From: Dictyostelium discoideum
Taxonomy: Eukaryota
Length of the DNA stretch: 64,000 nt
Direction: 5' to 3'
Assembly: GCA_000004695.1 (NCBI GenBank)
Contig: CM000155.2
Coordinates: 1,824,001 to 1,888,000 of the forward strand
The translations under genes were made by a program, and so were the position numbers. How positions within the stretch are numbered: position 1 is the stretch's first letter; every line of letters begins with the position of its first letter. Positions 9,158 to 63,365 of the stretch are shown in pieces. The notes beneath the pieces are model-generated. The model did not search any database. It was not told the origin of the DNA and worked only from the letters and a program-made list of their open reading frames with translations.

Positions 9158-9376
9158 AAATATAAAAAAAGATTAAAAAATTAAATAATAAAAAGGTAAA
9201 TTAAAAAATATTTTTTTAAAAAACTAACAATTCATATTATAAAAATAAATTTTTAATTATTTATTTATTAAATGTAAAAGAAATCATAAATTAAATAAAT
9301 TTATATTTTTTTTCAAGTTGATTATTTTACAATGTATATAATTTTTTTACATTTTTGGTGAAATTTCATCAAAAAT

Positions 9377-9449
9377 GCCTGGATGGCTCAGTAGGCAGAG
9401 CGAGCGGCTGTTAACCGCTAGGTCCATGGTTCGATCCCATGTCTAGGCG
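9377..9449 (+). tRNA. tRNA-Asn (anticodon GUU)
   Basis: Cloverleaf structure. Acceptor GCCTGGA/TCTAGGC, anticodon stem AGCGG/CCGCT with loop CTGTTAA, T-arm GGTTCGATCC, discriminator G. Confidence 0.9.
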
Positions 9450-9712
9450 ATACTTTTTTATTTTCAATATCATTTTTTTTTTTATCTTAAAAATGGATTC
9501 TCTACATCGAGACCTTTCAAAATATCAAAAATTCATCAGAATTGGCCAACGTTGAAAAAAGTTAATGCCTTTTTTTTATAATAATTAATTGATTGGTTAA
9601 AAAAAAAAAAAAAGAAATTTTTTTTTTTATTTTCACCATTTCAAAAAAAAAAAAATAAAAAACATATTGGTCTAGATTCAGTGAAATTGTTAAATTAAAA
9701 TATAAAAATAAA

Positions 9713-12360: not shown

Positions 12361-12431
12361 GCGTATGTGGTCTAGTGGTATGATGCATCCCTGCCACGGA
12401 TGCGAACTGGGTTCGATTCCCAGCATACGCA
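12361..12431 (+). tRNA. tRNA-Gly (anticodon GCC)
   Basis: Acceptor GCGTATG/CATACGC, anticodon stem CATCC/GGATG with loop CTGCCAC, T-arm GGGTTCGATTCCC, discriminator A. A conserved downstream element ATTTCCGAACTTCGGA lies ~20 bp 3'. Confidence 0.9.
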
Positions 12432-12599
12432 CATCTTTTTTGAAGTTTACAGGATTTCCGAACTTCGGATGGGGTGAAAAATAAAGAATTTTACAAAGTT
12501 TGTCAAAACTGAAAATAAAAACATTTTTTTTGTTTTTCTAAAAAATCAATTAAGTTTTCATTCTTTCAAACAAATACCACATTGTTTTTAATTTGGATA

Positions 12600-13564: not shown

Positions 13565-13635
13565 TGCGTATGCTGGGAATCGAACCCAGTTCGCATCCGT
13601 GGCAGGGATGCATCATACCACTAGACCACATACGC
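13565..13635 (-). tRNA. tRNA-Gly (anticodon GCC), second copy, identical in sequence to 12361..12431 but inverted.
   Basis: Exact reverse complement of the + strand tRNA-Gly. The same ATTTCCGAACTTCGGA element lies ~25 bp downstream on its own strand (13510..13530). Confidence 0.9.
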
Positions 13636-13954: not shown

Positions 13955-14005
13955 GGGGATTTGAACTGGTGACCTTAGTTTTTTCATTAAAAAAGTGCCG
14001 CGACC

Positions 14006-14076
14006 TGGAATCGAACCAGGGTCAACAGAGCCACAATCTGATGTACTACCACTATACTATCACGGCTTATTGTGAT
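14006..14076 (-). tRNA. tRNA-His (anticodon GUG)
   Basis: The reverse complement folds as a cloverleaf. Acceptor GCCGTGA/TCGCGGC, anticodon stem TCAGA/TCTGT with loop TTGTGGC, T-arm CCTGGTTCGATTCCAGG, discriminator A. There is no encoded G-1, which is normal for eukaryotes. Confidence 0.85.
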
Positions 14077-45423: not shown

Positions 45424-45494
45424 GGGAAATTAGTTAAGTGGTATAATGTTATCTTAGGGTGATAGCGTCCTGAGTTCGATTCTCGGATTTCCCC
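45424..45494 (+). tRNA. tRNA-Pro (anticodon AGG)
   Basis: Acceptor GGGAAAT/ATTTCCC, anticodon stem TTATC/GATAG with loop TTAGGGT, T-arm CTGAGTTCGATTCTCGG, discriminator C. Confidence 0.85.
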
Positions 45495-45520
45495 CAAAAA
45501 TGTTTACCTGCACCAAAATC

Positions 45521-46452: not shown

Positions 46453-46535
46453 TGCAAGAGGCGAGATTCGAACTCGCGAACCGAATGGATGAGATCTTAA
46501 GTCACACGGATTTAACCAGACTTTCCTACCCTTGC
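46453..46535 (-). tRNA. tRNA-Leu (anticodon UAA), class II with a long variable arm.
   Basis: The reverse complement has acceptor GCAAGGG/CTCTTGC, anticodon stem TGTGA/TCTCA with loop CTTAAGA, a ~12-nt variable arm, T-arm GCGAGTTCGAATCTCGC and discriminator A. Confidence 0.75.
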
Positions 46536-50996: not shown

Positions 50997-51491
50997 ATGA
51001 ATAAACTATATAAAATTTTAAGTTTATTTTTAATATTTTCATTTATAAAAGAAATTTATTGTATAATGGATAATAATAATAATAAAAATCCTGTTCGTTT
51101 TGAATGTATTCCAAATTCATGTTTATCGGATCATTCATGTATTGAAGATTTAGAAACTGGTAAAAATAAATGTGTTGATGATAGTACTCGTAAAGTTATA
51201 TTTCAATCAACAATTGTTACAAAATGGCATAATGATAATGATAATGATCCTAAAATGCATGTTTCTGTTGAAATTATCAATGAAAATGTTAATACAATTC
51301 ATAATTTAGTCATTGTAATCGATTCATCAGTTAGAGTAATTGATTTGTGGGGTATGAATAAAAATAAAAGTGTTTATCAATTACCATCATATGTTCAAAT
51401 TCCACCAAATTCAACTCATAATTTTGGTTACATTTGTGATGGTTTCCAATTACCAAAAATATTTCTTGGTGCTGTGTATATTATAATTTAA
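50997..51491 (+). CDS. Hypothetical secreted 164 aa protein (signal peptide MNKLYKILSLFLIFSFIKEIYC, then a Cys-containing domain).
   Basis: ORF with an N-terminal hydrophobic leader. No family recognised. Confidence 0.45.
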   Translation: MNKLYKILSLFLIFSFIKEIYCIMDNNNNKNPVRFECIPNSCLSDHSCIEDLETGKNKCVDDSTRKVIFQSTIVTKWHNDNDNDPKMHVSVEIINENVNTIHNLVIVIDSSVRVIDLWGMNKNKSVYQLPSYVQIPPNSTHNFGYICDGFQLPKIFLGAVYIII

Positions 51492-53442: not shown

Positions 53443-56400
53443 ATGAATAGAGTTAGTGTTTTAAGCAAATACCAATGCTTAAAGATTAACTCTCCAAATA
53501 GATTTTTTTCAAAATATTTTACAACATCAACAATAAATTCAACAAAAATAACAAATGATCAATCACAAACAAACTCTGCAGGAAAAGAAATATCACAACC
53601 AATTTTAAAATCTCAAGATAAACTCAAAAAATCAATTTTAAAAACATCAACAGATACAAATTTTTTAAAAGATATAAATAAAAAACATCGACAACATTAT
53701 ATTAAACCACAAAAAGATGATGAAAATATTATTTTAAAAACATTGTATGTACATACCTATTTTTATTAATAAAAAAAAATAATTGAAAAATGATTGAAAA
53801 AAAAAAAAGTGATTAAACTAACACACACATAAAATAATTGAAAATAAATAAATAATAATTTTTTTTAGAAATGATTTAAAAACAAATAATTTAAATACAA
53901 AAGAATTAATTAGTGATAGATTATCAGAATTATTTTTAAATAAAGAAATGATTAAATTAATAAGTGAAAATGAAATTGAATCAATTAATGAAATATTTAA
54001 AATAGTTTTAGGAGCTAAAAAATCACAACAACCACCAACAGTAGCATTTTTTACAAAATCATTTTTAAATAAATCATCAAAAGAATTTAAAATGAAATTA
54101 GATTCATTACCAATTATAGTTTACTTTTTATCAGTTTTTGAATCAAAAGATATAATGAAAAGTTCAGATTCAGATTCAGATTCAACAGCAACAAATAATT
54201 ATTTAACTGTTGGAAAAGGTATATCAAAAAAGTTTATTCAAAATTTCCAAGATTCAATTTCATCAGAACTTGATATAACAGATTTACAAGAACATTTATC
54301 AGATATGATTAAATTATCAAAATTTTCAAGATTACTTGGATATTTAACAAATGTTGAAATTTCAAGAGATAAAATTAAAAAATTAAAAGATAAAAATGAA
54401 ATTTTTAATCAATTAATAAATGAATTTGGTGAGAATATAAATGAAATTGAATTTCAAAATTTATTTAAAAATGAGATACATTTTATATCATTCCTATTAA
54501 CATTATCAAGAAATCAAATTATAACAATTTTATCAATAAGTAATAATAGTTGTTATGAAGAAGAAGAAGAAGTTGAAGAAGTTGAAGAAGTAAATGTAAA
54601 AGGGGAGGGAGGAGAATTATTTAAACGAGTTGACAAATATGAAGATAATAATAAAGGAATTTTTAATCAAAATAAAATTAAAAGTTTAATTGAAAATATA
54701 CCAGTTTCAAAAGTAAGAGAACGTTTATATTGGTTTTTATTAATGGCTAAATTAAGATACCCAATTAGTGAGAATTATTTTAATGATATTGAAATTTCAT
54801 TACATTATGAAAAAGATCCATCATTTATCTTGTTTTTCTTTAACCATTTCAAGATTTTTGGGTATATACCATCAGATTCATCAGAAGCAAAGATTTTCCA
54901 AAGATATGTAAGGGTTGCTACTCTTGATGAAGCTCTTCATTATTTCGATTCAATTAAAAAGAAACCTCAATCTTTAAATATCATTATGATCACTCATTTA
55001 CTTTTAGCAATGAATAAATTTAATAATCAATTAGATAGAAAAATAATAATTGATTCAACTACCAATACTACTACCAATACTACTATCAATACTACTATCA
55101 ATAATAATAAAATAAAAAAATATCAAAGATCAATTGAAAATGAAATGTTAACTCTTTATTCTAGTAAAATTAAGGATATTATAGGCTCAAATTCAAGTTT
55201 ATACAATTTTACATTATCACAACTTTTACATGGTGAAAAATGGAGAAAAGTTTTATTTAATACTTTAGTAACTCAATTAATTGAAAAACATATAAATTCA
55301 GTCACCGATGAAACACTTTTAATTATAAATGAATATTTCTCAATTCATAAAGATGATGTAATCCTTAAAAAATTGTATGAACTCTCTAAAAAAATTCATC
55401 TTTCAAAAGAGTTACTCTCAAATCTTACAATTCAATTTCTAATTCACAAAAGGGATTATTCTAATGCAATCAATTCTTTAATTGAATTATATAAACAAGA
55501 AACTCCAATTTTAAAATCAACTTTAAAATTATTAATTAAAAGTGATCCAACTCATCCAATTTTATTTGAATTTTATAAAACTTTACCACAACAATTTGAA
55601 TTAATTGAACCTACAAATCAAGAACAAGAGCAAGATCAACAAGATCAACCACCACCACCACAACAACAACAAGAACAACAACAAGAACAACAACAACAAC
55701 AAGAACAACAACAACAACAAGATCAACAACAACAAGATCAACAACAAGATCAACAAGAAAAACAACAAATTAAAGAAATTAAACCAAAATTAAAAGAAAA
55801 ATTAGAAAGTGAAAAACTTATTAATTCAGAATTATTTTTAGAATGTATAAATGATCCAATGAAATTATATAGAATTTTAGATGGAAAAATTGAAATTTTA
55901 GCAAGTACATTTCAAAGTATTGTTATGAAATCATTAGAATCGGGTAAATATCAATTTGTTGAAAGCATAATTTCAAAGAGATTTGGAGATAGTTCAAAAT
56001 CAATTGATAAGCATTTATTATCAAAATTAATTACAATTCCAAATTTACCAATTTCAAAAGATGATCCATACAATATTGAAAAACTACTATTAACAAATAA
56101 TCGATCAGAGAATTTAGCACTTTACAATAAACTTTTTAATTTATCTTTAAATAATGGTCTTTTAAATTGTGCAAAGAATTATATTTTAAAGATTATTCAA
56201 CAATCAAATCAAAGACTTGTAACATCATTATGTTATCAAGGTGAAGAAGCCTTAATTTATTCTTATATTTTATCATTAAATAATTTAAATATTATTAATA
56301 ATAATCAAGAAAATAATAATAATAATAATAATGATTTAAAAGAAACAATTGAAAATCAAATTATTAAATGGATAGAATCAGTATTTGGTTGTAATAGTTT

Positions 56401-57242
56401 AAATGAAATTAATAATGATGATTTTGTATTTTCAATTCTTTTAGGATTTCATCATTCAACATCTGCATACTATAAGAAACAAATTGGAAATTTAAATGAA
56501 CAACAACAATTACCATCATCATTATATTTAAAGATTAGATCAAATTTAATGCAAGTAATAAATAAATATTTTGATCTTATAGTTTTGGATAGAATGATAT
56601 TATCAAGTTATGGTCTTGAATCAAAATATTATGGTGAAGCTATTGATTTTCAAAAGGATTTCATCTCAATGATAACAATAAATGAACTTTACCAATATAC
56701 AATTTTAAAATTAAATTTACTTGAAAAAAAAAATAATAATAATAACAACAATAATAATAATAATAGTTACTATCGAATTTCAATAGATAAGAAATTCATT
56801 GAAAATAATGATCAATCATTTAATGAAATTGATTTATTATTAAAGAATATTAGTACAAAACAAATTTCAGTTATTGTACCATTTTTAATGGGTTTCATTG
56901 AAAATCCATCATTAATGAAATATCTTTCAGTGATATTATCAAATGATTTGAACAAATATGATACAGCAACAACAACAACAACAACAACAACAATTGGTAA
57001 TAATTTCATTCAAAGATTAATGGAATCATCATCAAATTCAAAGGAAATTGACTTTTTAAATATTTCAAATACATTCTTTTTTAAATATTTCATTTCAGTT
57101 GGTGATTTAAAAAGTGCTTTCAAAGTTCATTTTAAACAAATTCATATTTTAATTAGATTTAGATTAATTCAAGATATTTTAAAGAATCAACCATTGGTAA
57201 TGGATCATATATTTAAAATAATCTCATCAGAACTAGAACTAG

Positions 57243-57322
<80 letters not shown>

Positions 57323-58150
57323 AAATCATCATCACCATCATTAGATTATGGTTTAATTGAAAGTTTATTATCAGTTACTTCAATTTTAAATGATTCAAAA
57401 TCAATTCATTTCTCTTTAAAACTTTATAATTTAGCTAGTGAACATGCTAAATTAAACAATTCAAGAATTCCACTATCAATTACAAATTCAAAAGATTTGG
57501 TTTTATCAGGATTTAAAAATAGAAATGATCATTTCCAATTATCTGAAAATTTGAAAATTTCAGATATTGAAAAACAAATGAAACAAACACGTGGTGCAGG
57601 TGCTGATGGTGCAGATGAAATTATTATTAAAAATCATTTAACAAGTTCTCAACTTTTAAATGATATTAAATATATTTTAATTCATTCAAATTATAAGCAA
57701 TTAAAAGGTATTGGTTTCGGTGTACTTAGAGGTGACATTCCTTTTACAATAAATGATAAAATTAAAGTGTTCCTTTTAGTTGAAGCTTTTGCAGCAGAAG
57801 AAGGCAGAGAAAAAGTTAATAGCTTTTTGAATACTCCATCATTACTAAACAATTCCTTAGACTTTGAATTATTAAGAACTCCAAAAATCACAAAATTAAT
57901 CTCTTTCATTTTCAGAACTAATTCAAGCATCAAACATGATTCAAATTATTTCCCTGAATTTTCACCAGATTTCTTACCTAATAAATTCAAATTTTATTCT
58001 GCTCATCTTGAAGATATTAATAATAATGATAATGATAATAGTATTCAAGATATATCAAATATAGTTAATTGTAATAGTGGTCCAGAATCTTTTTATTATA
58101 GAAAAGTTTTAAAATATTTCTTTAAAAAAAGAATTTTAAAAAATTTATAA
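53443..58150 (+). CDS. Large hypothetical protein (~1,528 aa). Exon 1 53443..53744, intron 53745..53868, exon 2 53869..58150. It is mostly alpha-helical and Leu/Ile/Asn-rich with helical-repeat character. The N-terminus is presequence-like, so it could be an organellar helical-repeat (PPR/TPR-like) protein.
   Basis: A GTATGT donor after ...ILKT(L) and a TTTTTTAG acceptor (phase 2) join the ORFs 53443..53769 and 53948..58150 in frame. (CAA)n tracts encode poly-Q at ~55640..55760 and 57245..57320. Confidence 0.65.
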
Positions 58151-60238: not shown

Positions 60239-60293
<55 letters not shown>

Positions 60294-60329: not shown

Positions 60330-61065
60330 ATGGAAAGAAATTTTAATAATTTTTTAGTTAAAATATTTTGTCTTGGAGATGATGGAGTTGGTAAATCATG
60401 TGTAATGAACTCTTATTCAAGTGGTGGACCTTTAACATCTCTTTTCCAAGGTTCAGAATTAACATGGACCGATTATACAGTATCAGTAACACATAATCAA
60501 AAACCATTAAAATTAAGATTAGTTAGTAAGTTTTTTTTTTTTTTAAATTTAAAAAATTTCCTATAAAAAAAAAAAATAAAAAAATAAAAAAAAAAAAAAA
60601 AAAATCAAACTAATCAAAAAATAATAATAATAATATTAAAAAAAATAGTTGGTGATCAAAATGAATTAAGAAGAATAAAACAAATTGAATTTAATGATGT
60701 TTTTTTAATTTGTTTTTCAGTTGATTCAAAGGCATCATATGATAATATTGAAAAATGGAATACAGAAATTAGAAAAATCCTGCCAACTCCAAATATAATA
60801 TTAGTTGGTACAAAGATTGATTTAAGAAAAGAAGGTGGAGAACTTAAAAAATCAATTGTGACACAAGAAATGGGAATTGAAAAAGCAAAAGAAATAAATG
60901 CAATAAAATATATGGAGTGTTCAACAGCAACCTACGAAGGAGTTAAAGAAGTTTTCGACGAAAGTATAAATATCTACATGACAAAAAAGCTTTATATCCA
61001 AGATTTAAGAAAAAAAAGTTTTTTAATTCCAAAGAAAAATACAAACAAAAAATCCTGTAAAACCC

Positions 61066-61070
<5 letters not shown>
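60330..61070 (+). CDS. Divergent Rho/Rac-family small GTPase with a C-terminal CAAX box (CKTQ). Exon 1 60330..60525, intron 60526..60648, exon 2 60649..61070.
   Basis: G1 reads [21 protein letters not shown] donor (phase 1) and an ATAG acceptor give ...[43 protein letters not shown]...[11 protein letters not shown]...[20 protein letters not shown]4 (TKxD), G5 (ECSA-like) and the Rho-type FLICFSV are all present. The G3 DTAGQE motif is replaced by IGDQNE. Confidence 0.75.
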
Positions 61071-61257: not shown

Positions 61258-63365
61258 TTATTTTTTATTTAAATAATTTATATAAATTAAATGTAATATT
61301 GAAATGAATAAAATTAAATTGTTGTTTAAACCAAGTGAGAATGCTGAACTTTCATTTTTCTCAACTGGAGTTGGCGATGGTGTTATGAGGGAAGGAGTTG
61401 GTGTGGGAGTTGGTTTTATTATTTGTATTGATGATTGTGATTGTATACCATCAACAGTAATGTTTAATAGAGAATTATAATCAGATTCTATTAAAGTAAA
61501 AGTAAATTTATTATCATTGATAGTTTGAATCTCTGGATTTCTACCAGAGAAATTTACTTTTAATAATGAAATTTCTGTACCAAAATTATATCCATAAATC
61601 GTTACTACTGTCATATTATAAATTTCAAAAGATGTAATTGATGGTTGCATATATGAGAATTGGGTTGTTGAATTTTCAGTTTGATATTTAATTTGTATTG
61701 AATGTTTACCGGTACCTGGAGGAATTTGACAAATTGTTGAATAATATTCTGAATTTTGTTGAATAGATGGTTTTGAACATGTGATTTCATTTTTAAAAGA
61801 GTTATCAATAATTGATGAAACTTTAGCAGTATTTGTACAATCATAATTAATTAAATTTAAAGTTAATGATGAAGTGTTTGAAACAAATGGTGAATTTAAT
61901 GATGTAATTGTTAATGGTGTTTTAATGGTAATTGAATTTGATGAAAAATTATTATGAATAATTGTAACAATTGGTTTACATTTTGATTTTTGTAAATTAA
62001 ATATTAATTGGGTTTCATCATTATTAATTGAAATTGGTAAAATGTTATCATTTAAACCTTGAATTTTTATAATTGTTTCATTTAATAAACCAAAGTTTAT
62101 ACCAACTAATGTTACAGTAGTATCATTTGATTTAATTGGTGTATGGGAATATAAAGTTGGTTTTCCATAGGTAAATGTTAAATTTGAATTATCAATACAT
62201 CCTCCAATATTAATTTTTACATTTAAATTTGAACCACCAATTTGATCGGGACTTAATTGACATTGAATTTCATTTAATGTTGAGTTTAATACTTTACAAT
62301 CGTTATCTCCAATTTTAACTTTTACAATTTCACTATCATTATTAAAATATGATCCTTTAATTGTAACTATACCAAAAATATGGTTTGATATTGAATTTAT
62401 TGATGATGGAATAGGTGGGAAACAATAAGAATAATTAGTATCCATTGAAATATTATTTACTGAGATTTGAATTTTCATTGGACCACCAGTATCTTGAATA
62501 AATTTATCAACTTGAATTAATGTATCATTTTGTATAATTGAAAATGTATTTTGTGATATACCATTGAATAGAATATTTATAAGTTGTTTTTCAGTATAAA
62601 AATTATCACCATAAATCGAAATCTTTGAATTATTTGGATCATAATTTATTGAATTTATAATTGGAGATTCATATGAAAATTCAAATTTTTTAACCAAGTC
62701 AAACATTAAATCCATTTTGCCAGATCCTGGTGGGAATGATAATGTTAGATTATTACAATCAAATGTTGGATCTTCAAAATTTCCAATTACTTTAATAGTT
62801 ACATTTGTTGATGATTGAATAATATTAAGTTGTTGAGATAATAATCTTAAATAATTTCCAGTGACAATTACATTACCGCCCTTTGTTGATGGTTTACTAG
62901 TAAATTTTACATTAATTGGTGATGGAATTTTAGCATTTGTCATCGAAATAAAACAAACTTGTCCACTACTATCAACTGCACAAAATGTTGATGAAGTTGT
63001 CCCAAATAATCTTGACATTCGTCTATTAGTAATTAATAAACAATTTCTAAAACCACCTGATGGTGTACCGCAGTCAAATGAAACTTGAGCATCTACTAAT
63101 GTTGTAGAATTATATTTCATTGTCCAACTTGCATAATAACTTTCAGATTCTTTAAATCTAAAAGTAATATTTGTAGGTGTTAAATTAATACCTAACAAAT
63201 TATAAATTATTTTAAATATATTAATATTTTTATACCAAAATTTTAATTTTTTAATTTTTTAATTTTTTAATTTTAATAATTACTTTCAGGATTAGGTGCT
63301 CTTATTGATTGAACCACTGATTTCAAAAATAAAAATAAAAATATAAAATAAATTACTTTTTTCAT
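61258..63365 (-). CDS. IPT/TIG-domain cell-surface protein of the Tgr (TgrB/TgrC-like) family. Exon 1 63284..63365 (signal peptide), intron 63192..63283, exon 2 61258..63191.
   Basis: Exon 1 is MKKVIYFIFLFLFLKSVVQSIRAPNPE, followed by a GTAATT donor. A TTGTTAG acceptor joins in frame to (S)INLTPTNITFRF.... There are repeated IPT/TIG-like beta-domains with many N-glycosylation sequons, a PTPTPTPS linker and a C-terminal hydrophobic tail LILFISILHLIYINYL (TM or GPI signal). This is the Tgr-type architecture. Confidence 0.75.

What the first reader, a model, noticed from the sequence alone, without database searches (positions are those of the whole stretch)
60330..61070. Rho-family GTPase with a non-canonical switch II / G3 motif
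The predicted protein has normal G1 (GDDGVGKS), G4 (TKID), G5 and a CAAX box. The universally conserved G3 DxxGQ (DTAGQE in Rho/Rac), which coordinates Mg2+ and the gamma-phosphate and carries the catalytic Gln61 equivalent, reads IGDQNE. The conserved switch I Thr (the TVFDNY region) is also absent in the aligned stretch. The catalytic Gln is displaced and the Asp-x-x-Gly spacing lost. This predicts a GTPase-deficient or constitutively GTP- or nucleotide-free Rho-like protein, i.e. a pseudo-GTPase, in an organism with a large Rac radiation.
Basis: partly seen in the sequence, partly recalled or inferred. Interest (0 to 1): 0.5.

Follow-up and report, generated by a model that had tools for sequence, protein, structure and literature searches.

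The report
Dictyostelium RacJ, a known atypical Rac
The region is the already described Dictyostelium discoideum gene racJ, a real, expressed and conserved Rho-family protein. It has truly lost the DxxG "switch II" motif, so it probably cannot work as a normal GTP-hydrolysing switch, but nobody has tested this biochemically.

Summary
Window 60330-61070 (+) is a two-exon gene. Its 205-aa product is identical to D. discoideum RacJ (RACJ_DICDI, EAL61083.1), first described in 2001. No frame of the gene encodes DTAGQE.

The gene is not a pseudogene:
- dN/dS is 0.04-0.08 among close species and 0.21 against D. purpureum.
- It has been cloned from cDNA.
- The protein is detected by proteomics, peaking at culmination.

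The G3 deviation is real and conserved (LV-IGD[Q/D]NEL in place of LWDTAGQED). The rebuilt switch II is the best conserved segment of the protein (88% against 66% overall).

Three details need correcting:
- The P-loop carries Asp at the Gly12 position.
- Gln69 does align with Gln61, but it is Asp in D. purpureum.
- A conserved Thr lies one residue from the Thr35 column.

There are further lesions: Phe28 is lost, and D. purpureum has Cys at the Ser/Thr17 position. The P-loop Lys, TKxD and ECS motifs are kept.

A pseudoGTPase reading is well supported by sequence but untested. RacJ is one of several atypical D. discoideum Racs. The gene is already known, so interest is modest.

The parts
60330..60525 (+). 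racJ exon 1 (Met1 to the first base of the Ile66 codon)
   Evidence: ORF and GTAAGT donor. The spliced product is identical to RACJ_DICDI.
60375..60398 (+). G1/P-loop, GDDGVGKS (Gly16-Ser23). Asp18 is the Gly12 equivalent.
   Evidence: Direct reading. Profile alignment. The published 'RacJ D18V' constitutively active primer matches this sequence.
60423..60476 (+). Remodelled switch I region (residues 32-49, [18 protein letters not shown]). Phe28 equivalent lost, net 3-residue insertion, Thr35 column = Leu44, conserved Thr45 adjacent.
   Evidence: Lowest pLDDT of the G domain, 57-71. 39% identity to D. purpureum.
60526..60648 (+). Intron, 123 nt, phase 1, GTAAGT...TAG, 6.5% GC
   Evidence: Same position in D. 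purpureum (71 nt), D. dimigraforme (153), D. firmibasis (92) and D. citrinum (330).
60649..61070 (+). racJ exon 2 (rest of the Ile66 codon to Gln205, plus the TAA stop)
60649..60698 (+). Non-canonical G3/switch [19 protein letters not shown] (residues 66-82; the first base of Ile66 is at 60525). Asp57 deleted, Gly60 is Asp68, Gln69 sits in the Gln61 column.
   Evidence: Most conserved segment between D. discoideum and D. purpureum, 15/17 identical.
60810..60821 (+). G4, TKID (Thr120-Asp123), canonical for Rho proteins
   Evidence: Invariant T-K-x-D in all orthologues.
60828..60863 (+). Shortened Rho insert (residues 126-137), 6 residues shorter than in Rac1 and poorly conserved
   Evidence: 17% identity to D. 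purpureum.
60915..60926 (+). G5, ECST (Glu155-Thr158). Ala159 of Rac1 is replaced by Thr (Ser in the other orthologues except D. cf. discoideum).
60981..61055 (+). Conserved C-terminal extension and polybasic stretch ([25 protein letters not shown])
   Evidence: 85% identical to D. purpureum over residues 177-196. The model extends helix alpha5 to residue 189.
61056..61067 (+). CAAX box, CKTQ (Cys202-Gln205)
   Evidence: Invariant in all orthologues.

Best explanation
The locus is racJ of Dictyostelium discoideum. It is a genuine, spliced, expressed gene for a Rho-family small G protein found only in the D. discoideum/D. purpureum group.

Shown here:
- The gene model and splice are right.
- The protein keeps the Rac fold and the residues that hold the guanine base and phosphates: P-loop Gly16/Gly21/Lys22, TKxD and ECS.
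- It has lost or rebuilt every element that senses Mg2+ and the gamma-phosphate or catalyses hydrolysis. Gly12 is Asp. Phe28 is absent. Switch I is remodelled. Asp57 is deleted. Gly60 is Asp. The residue in the Gln61 column is not conserved.
- The rebuilt switch II is the most strongly conserved part of the protein.

Inferred:
- RacJ does not work as a GEF/GAP-driven GTP-hydrolysing switch, so it is a pseudoGTPase.
- My favoured version is that it still binds guanine nucleotide with weak Mg2+ dependence and fast exchange. In cells it would then be mostly GTP-loaded but unable to hydrolyse or to couple nucleotide state to switch conformation.
- Its output would be set by expression (late development, culmination) and by membrane targeting through a probably farnesylated CKTQ box and a polybasic tail.
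- The conserved switch II surface would act as a constitutive partner-binding site.
For: - Identity to RACJ_DICDI.
- Intron position conserved in 5 species with unrelated intron sequences.
- dN/dS 0.04-0.08 among close species and 0.21 against D. purpureum.
- cDNA-based cloning. Protein detected with a peak at culmination, and RNA expressed late in development.
- Pfam Ras hit and best PDB hits Rac1/2/3. AlphaFold model with pLDDT 81.7, core above 90, matching Rac/Rho structures.
- Residue-by-residue profile alignment. RacJ is the only one of 13 non-Rac1-type D. discoideum Racs without Asp57.
- D. purpureum additionally has Cys at Ser/Thr17 and Asp at Gln69.
- Switch II segment 88% identical against 66% overall.
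- Thr35 and Gly60 bind the gamma-phosphate, and the T35S and G60A Ras mutants sit in the effector-inactive state 1 (PMC4867591).
- Loss of Gly12 makes Rnd and RhoH GTPase-deficient (PMC13236570).
- RacJ was among the GFP-Rac fusions made for the GxcDD study and is absent from the list of DH-domain binders.
- RacJ(D18V) is not among the WASP-GBD binders in a 19-Rac two-hybrid screen.
Against: - There is no biochemical measurement of nucleotide binding or hydrolysis for RacJ in any paper I could read.
- Gln69 aligns with the catalytic Gln61 in the D. discoideum clade. Invariant Asp68/Glu71 and Thr45 lie close enough that a shifted Mg2+ site cannot be excluded from sequence.
- Switch I is modelled at low confidence, and I could not inspect model coordinates.
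- The negative GEF and effector binding results involve single partners and are weak evidence.
- Only two levels of divergence are available for the conservation argument: the discoideum clade and D. purpureum.
Confidence: 0.7

Rival explanations
1. RacJ is a nucleotide-free scaffold, a class I pseudoGTPase like the RhoBTB1/2 GTPase domain. The G domain would be only a folded interaction module anchored to membranes by its lipid tail.
For: - All three Mg2+-site positions are compromised (Ser/Thr17 is Cys in D. purpureum, Thr35 column, Asp57), and the base-stacking Phe28 is lost.
- Class I pseudoGTPases are defined in PMC12722892.
- Switch II conservation fits a fixed binding surface.
Against: P-loop Gly16/Gly21/Lys22, TKxD and ECS are invariant in all orthologues, including D. 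purpureum. That is hard to explain if nucleotide is never bound. From my own knowledge of Ras biochemistry, Mg2+-free Ras-type proteins still bind nucleotide at cellular concentrations.
Confidence: 0.22
2. RacJ is still a working GTPase switch that uses a shifted or non-canonical catalytic set. Thr45 would act as the switch I Thr, Asp68 or Glu71 would replace Asp57, and Gln69 would be catalytic, perhaps with a dedicated GAP.
For: - Gln69 sits in the Gln61 column with good posterior probability.
- Thr45, Asp68 and Glu71 are invariant among orthologues.
- RGK proteins also lack DxxG (they have DxWE) yet bind nucleotide (PMC4081519).
Against: - Gln69 is Asp and Ser23 is Cys in D. purpureum, so the putative catalytic and Mg2+ residues are not conserved.
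- Asp at the Gly12 position blocks hydrolysis in Ras/Rho proteins.
- There is no Gly at the Gly60 hinge.
Confidence: 0.12
3. The odd G3 is an artefact: a mis-predicted splice acceptor, or a decaying, untranscribed pseudogene.
For: The motif spans the exon junction, and the organism has a known rac pseudogene (racK_ps).
Against: - No frame of the gene or intron encodes DTAGQE.
- The only in-frame GT/AG pair is the consensus one.
- The junction is conserved in five species, two of them with intron lengths that are not multiples of 3.
- dN/dS is far below 1.
- cDNA clones and proteomic detection exist.
- The annotated protein is identical.
Confidence: 0.01

Closest known systems
Dictyostelium discoideum RacJ (RACJ_DICDI, XP_629540/EAL61083; Rivero et al. 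2001, Okuwa et al. 2001)
   Same: 100% identical over 205 aa. Same gene.
   Different: Nothing differs. In the literature I could read, only the divergent switch I is remarked on, not the loss of DxxG or the Asp at the Gly12 position.
Atypical Rho GTPases Rnd1-3 and RhoH (class II pseudoGTPases)
   Same: - Rho-family fold.
- Non-Gly residue at position 12 and an altered G3/switch II.
- Predicted GTPase deficiency, with control by expression level rather than by GEF/GAP.
- A CAAX ending in a non-Leu residue suggests farnesylation, as in the Rnd proteins (my own knowledge).
   Different: Rnd and RhoH keep Asp57, Gly60 and Thr35 and bind GTP-Mg2+ normally. RacJ lacks Asp57 and Gly60 and has a rebuilt switch I. 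RacJ is not orthologous to them; it is a lineage-specific Dictyostelium paralogue.
RGK family (Rad, Gem, Rem; G3 = DxWE)
   Same: Ras-superfamily proteins in which DxxG is replaced and switch I is not conserved. They are thought to deviate from the canonical switch.
   Different: RGK proteins keep Asp57, lack a CAAX box, have long N- and C-terminal extensions and belong to the Ras branch. RacJ's closest relatives are Racs.
RhoBTB1/2 GTPase domain (class I pseudoGTPase)
   Same: A Rho-derived domain reported not to bind or hydrolyse nucleotide.
   Different: RhoBTB proteins carry BTB domains and no CAAX box. RacJ is a single G domain with a CAAX box and intact G4/G5.
Other atypical D. discoideum Racs (RacI, RacO, RacQ, RacH, RacM, RacN)
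   Same: Same gene radiation. All lack Gln61. RacI also lacks Gly60, RacO has Glu at position 57, and RacH, RacI and RacM lack Gly12.
   Different: RacJ is the only one with Asp57 deleted and Phe28 missing. With RacO it is the most distant from a canonical Rac profile (133 and 129 bits, against 178-306 bits for ten of the other eleven and 141 for RacQ).

Membership tests
Rho family of small GTPases | Ras-type G-domain fold | tested here: met
   Pfam PF00071, 86 bits against a cut-off of 21.6. AlphaFold model with TM about 0.8 to Rac1/Rac3/RhoA.
Rho family of small GTPases | Closest relatives are Rac/Rho/Cdc42 rather than Ras/Rab/Arf | tested here: met
   The top 60 PDB sequence hits are all Rac/Cdc42/TC10/plant ROP. 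The top database homologues are Racs.
Rho family of small GTPases | Rho insert (about 13 residues) between beta5 and alpha4 | tested here: inconclusive
   An insert is present but 6 residues shorter than in Rac1 and only 17% conserved against D. purpureum. Shortened inserts are reported in other amoebozoan Rho proteins.
Rho family of small GTPases | C-terminal CAAX prenylation box | tested here: met
   CKTQ, invariant in all orthologues. Prenylation itself was not tested.
Canonical switch GTPase (G1-G5 complete) | G1 GxxxxGK[ST] with Gly at position 12 | tested here: not met
   GDDGVGKS fits the Walker A pattern, but position 12 is Asp. D. purpureum has GDKDVGKC, with Cys instead of Ser/Thr.
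Canonical switch GTPase (G1-G5 complete) | G2 switch I Thr35 | tested here: inconclusive
   The profile column holds Leu44. Conserved Thr45 is adjacent. Posterior probability and pLDDT are both low here.
Canonical switch GTPase (G1-G5 complete) | G3 DxxG(Q) | tested here: not met
   LV-IGDQNE: Asp57 deleted and Gly60 replaced by Asp in all six orthologues. The Gln61 column is Gln in the D. discoideum clade and Asp in D. purpureum.
Canonical switch GTPase (G1-G5 complete) | G4 [NT]KxD and G5 (E)CSA | tested here: met
   TKID (TKSD in D. purpureum) and ECS[T/S] are conserved.
Class II pseudoGTPase (Rnd/RhoH type) | Binds GTP constitutively without hydrolysing it | not testable with these tools
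   Needs purified protein. Sequence shows catalytic-site lesions (Gly12 to Asp) but also loss of Mg2+/gamma-phosphate ligands that Rnd and RhoH retain.
Class I pseudoGTPase (nucleotide-free) | No nucleotide binding | not testable with these tools
   Conserved P-loop Lys, TKxD and ECS argue against this. Loss of Phe28, Asp57 and (in D. purpureum) Ser17 argues for it.
Processed or decaying pseudogene | Disrupted ORF, neutral evolution, no expression | tested here: not met
   Intact ORF in 6 genomes. dN/dS 0.04-0.21. cDNA and protein evidence.

The most novel reading that the evidence does not exclude
RacJ would be a kind of Rho-family pseudoGTPase not yet characterised. It keeps the base- and phosphate-binding scaffold (P-loop Lys, TKxD, ECS) but has shed every Mg2+/gamma-phosphate sensor (Gly12, Phe28, Thr35 region, Asp57, Gly60). 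Its rebuilt, hyper-conserved switch II would be a permanent docking surface used during culmination in group-4 dictyostelids. It would thus signal by abundance and membrane localisation rather than by a nucleotide cycle.
Probability: 0.45. Interest if true: 0.4.

Novelty: already known. Interest (0 to 1): 0.22.

Why it matters
If RacJ is confirmed as a non-cycling Rho protein, it would add a protist example to the pseudoGTPase group. It would differ from Rnd and RhoH in having lost the Mg2+/gamma-phosphate sensors rather than only the catalytic residues. That would help to define which G-box elements are dispensable for a functional Rho-fold protein.

It would also caution against treating all 20 Dictyostelium 'Racs' as GEF/GAP-regulated switches, for example by making 'constitutively active' D18V versions.

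In practice this is a small, specialist point. The gene is known, its knockout has no overt phenotype, and the prediction follows directly from a published sequence.

Tried and rejected
- **Alternative splicing that would restore DTAGQE.** I listed all GT donors and AG acceptors around the junction and translated all three frames. Only the 60526/60648 pair gives an open frame, and no frame encodes D-x-x-G-Q.
- **Pseudogene.** Rejected by dN/dS, intact orthologues, cDNA and proteomics.
- **Orthologues outside the D. discoideum/D. purpureum group.**
  - An exhaustive profile search of 1.84 billion cluster representatives gave only the RacJ cluster above about 120 bits for single-domain proteins. 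The higher-scoring P0126-P0137 are tandem multi-GTPase proteins with canonical or unrelated G3 motifs, not orthologues.
  - A published table lists RacJ-like proteins only for D. discoideum and D. purpureum among eight dictyostelids.
- **How unusual loss of DxxG is.**
  - 96% of close Rac-like hits keep it.
  - 25% of the divergent Rho-like domains pulled out by the RacJ profile also lack it, so loss of G3 in fast-evolving protist Rho paralogues is not unique.
- **Papers I could not read.** Rivero et al. 2001 (PMC29714), Stiegler & Boggon 2020 (PMC7544640) and Wang et al. 2013 (PMC3856778) are not held. I therefore cannot say whether the G3 loss was explicitly discussed in 2001.
- **Model geometry.** Model coordinates are not exposed, so I could not measure the geometry of the putative nucleotide site.

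Full report
**What is there**

The window has the base composition of Dictyostelium: about 12-37% GC, with AT-rich homopolymer spacers. Between 60330 and 61070 on the + strand lies a two-exon gene:
- Exon 1 is 60330-60525.
- The intron is 60526-60648 (123 nt, GTAAGT...TAG, 6.5% GC against 26-28% in the exons).
- Exon 2 is 60649-61070, ending in TAA.

The 205-aa product is identical, residue for residue, to Rho-related protein RacJ of D. discoideum AX4 (RACJ_DICDI, EAL61083.1). The same sequence appears as XP_629540.1 in a published table.

**Is the splice real?**

Among all GT/AG pairs near the junction, only 60526/60648 keeps an open frame. No frame of the exons or the intron encodes DTAGQE or any D-x-x-G-Q.

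I fetched the orthologous loci of D. purpureum, D. dimigraforme, D. firmibasis and D. citrinum and solved their gene models against the database proteins.
- In all five species the intron interrupts the same codon in the same phase: ...GTT A | GT[A/T]... AG | TT GG[T/C] GA[T/C]...
- Intron lengths are 123, 71, 153, 92 and 330 nt, with unrelated sequence.
- Two of these lengths are not multiples of three, so read-through is impossible.
- The product always reads LRLV-IGD[Q/D]NEL.

RacJ has been amplified from cDNA and sequence-verified by others. A published mutagenesis primer for 'RacJ D18V' matches exon 1.

**Is it a live gene?**

Pairwise Nei-Gojobori dN/dS is 0.04-0.08 among the D. discoideum-clade species (dS 0.39-0.64). 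It is 0.21 against D. purpureum, where dS is about 1.3 and saturating.

The literature reports the following:
- Expression is highest late in development.
- The protein is detected in a whole-life-cycle proteome, in the cluster peaking at culmination.
- The single knockout has no overt phenotype.

The pseudogene alternative is excluded.

**Anatomy relative to a canonical Rac**

The protein matches Pfam Ras. Its best solved relatives are Rac2, Rac1 and Rac3 at 35-38% identity.

An AlphaFold2 model has mean pLDDT 81.7. Blocks of the core reach 93-98, but switch I reaches only 57-71.

I built a profile from 64 canonical Racs and aligned RacJ and its orthologues to it.

| Rac1 position | RacJ (D. 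discoideum) | D. purpureum, or note |
|---|---|---|
| Gly10, Gly15, Lys16 | kept | kept |
| Gly12 | Asp18 | Lys |
| Thr17 | Ser23 | Cys |
| Phe28 | no counterpart | no counterpart |
| Thr35 column | Leu44 | conserved Thr45 adjacent; low alignment confidence |
| Asp57 | deleted | deleted |
| Gly60 | Asp68 | Asp |
| Gln61 | Gln69 | Asp |
| TKxD | kept | kept |
| ECS | kept | kept |
| Ala159 | Thr | Ser |

Switch I also carries a net insertion. The Rho insert is 6 residues shorter than in Rac1. The CAAX box CKTQ and a preceding basic extension are invariant.

G1 is not 'normal', because it carries Asp at the Gly12 position. The Gln is not displaced, but it is not conserved. The switch I Thr question is open.

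**Pattern of conservation**

Between D. discoideum and D. purpureum the identities are as follows:

| Segment | Identity |
|---|---|
| Overall | 66% |
| Aberrant G3/switch II (residues 66-82) | 88% (15 of 17), the most conserved segment |
| C-terminal extension (residues 177-196) | 85% |
| Switch I | 39% |
| Rho insert | 17% |

RacJ as a whole evolves faster than RacC, RacD, RacE and RacH, whose orthologue pairs are 90-94% identical. The non-canonical switch II is therefore not decay. It is a constrained, presumably functional surface.

**Context in the family and distribution**

I used the D. discoideum Rac sequences from the supplement of Filic et al. 2021. RacJ is one of several atypical paralogues:
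- RacH, RacI, RacM, RacN, RacO and RacQ all lack Gln61.
- RacI also lacks Gly60.
- RacO has Glu at position 57.
- RacQ lacks a P-loop.
- RacH, RacI and RacM lack Gly12.

RacJ is the only one with Asp57 deleted and Phe28 missing. With RacO it lies furthest from the canonical Rac profile.

On distribution, an exhaustive profile search found no further single-domain orthologue. A published survey lists RacJ-like proteins only in D. discoideum and D. purpureum among eight dictyostelids.

Loss of DxxG is rare among close Rac relatives (4 of 103 domains). It is common among fast-evolving protist Rho-like domains (25 of 100).

**Mechanism**

These points come from the literature:
- Thr35 and Gly60 hydrogen-bond the gamma-phosphate, and the T35S and G60A Ras mutants occupy the effector-inactive state 1 (PMC4867591).
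- Absence of Gly12 makes Rnd and RhoH GTPase-deficient and GAP-insensitive (PMC13236570).
- RGK proteins, which replace DxxG with DxWE, deviate from the canonical switch (PMC4081519).

From my own knowledge, Asp57 and Ser/Thr17 organise the Mg2+ site, and Phe28 stacks on the guanine base. Mutating them weakens Mg2+ and nucleotide affinity.

My inference is that RacJ cannot run a canonical GTPase cycle. Because the P-loop Lys, TKxD and ECS remain invariant, I favour a protein that still binds nucleotide, but only weakly and with little Mg2+ dependence, without hydrolysis or a nucleotide-coupled switch. It would be regulated by developmental expression and by membrane targeting. The X = Gln in the CAAX box predicts farnesylation (my own knowledge).

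A nucleotide-free scaffold is the main rival. A non-canonical but active GTPase is less likely, because the candidate catalytic and Mg2+ residues are not conserved in D. purpureum.

Two published negatives fit this picture but are weak evidence:
- RacJ is not listed among the Racs bound by the GxcDD DH domain.
- RacJ(D18V) is not among the WASP-GBD binders.

**Novelty**

The gene, its sequence and its divergent switch I are already in the literature. I could not read the 2001 papers to see whether the G3 loss was discussed. I found no biochemical characterisation of RacJ and no use of the term pseudoGTPase for it.

Verdict: a correct observation of an already known atypical Rac. The pseudoGTPase interpretation is reasonable and somewhat strengthened here, but it remains untested. 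Interest is modest.

Noticed in passing
window 61258-63198 (-): A 646-aa ORF with IPT/TIG and TgrO1-like Ig domains (a Tgr-family cell-surface protein), convergent with racJ. The same neighbour follows racJ in D. dimigraforme, D. firmibasis and D. citrinum. It is absent from the D. purpureum locus, where racJ is followed directly by an aldo-keto reductase gene.
   Followed up: partly
L001 6372-6438 (D. purpureum racJ, gene positions 372-438): D. purpureum racJ has a second, 67-nt intron between the Lys and Trp codons of 'LKW'. The D. discoideum-clade genes lack it.
   Followed up: partly
P0002 (D. purpureum RacJ), residues 17-24 and 69: The D. purpureum orthologue has the P-loop GDKDVGKC (Cys at the Mg2+-binding Ser/Thr17 position, Lys at the Gly12 position) and Asp instead of Gln69. 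It is therefore even further from a working GTPase than the D. discoideum protein.
   Followed up: yes
window 60981-61055 (+), RacJ residues 177-201: The C-terminal extension ...[13 protein letters not shown]... is invariant between D. discoideum and D. purpureum and is modelled as a long alpha5 helix. RKKS looks like a basophilic-kinase site next to the polybasic-CAAX tail, reminiscent of phospho-regulated membrane release in other Rho proteins.
   Followed up: no
D. discoideum Rac paralogues (sequences from PMC8305917 supplement): Many D. discoideum Racs are atypical at catalytic positions. Gln61 is Ser in RacH, Leu in RacI, Gly in RacM and RacN, Phe in RacO and Ala in RacQ. RacQ has no P-loop. 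RacI also lacks Gly60.
   Followed up: partly
window 9376-9450, 12361-12432, 13565-13635, 13995-14066, 45424-45495, 46453-46535: Six tRNA genes (Asn-GTT, two Gly-GCC on opposite strands, His-GTG, Pro-AGG, Leu-TAA).
   Followed up: no
window 60245-60289: A 45-nt uninterrupted poly(A) run about 40 nt upstream of the racJ ATG, with further A/T homopolymer tracts in the 7% GC upstream spacer. This is typical Dictyostelium intergenic sequence.
   Followed up: no
window 50997-51491 (+) and 53948-58150 (+): A 164-aa ORF with a CBM49 carbohydrate-binding domain, and a 1400-aa ORF with only weak, probably low-complexity-driven, Pfam hits (TFIIA, DDHD).
   Followed up: no
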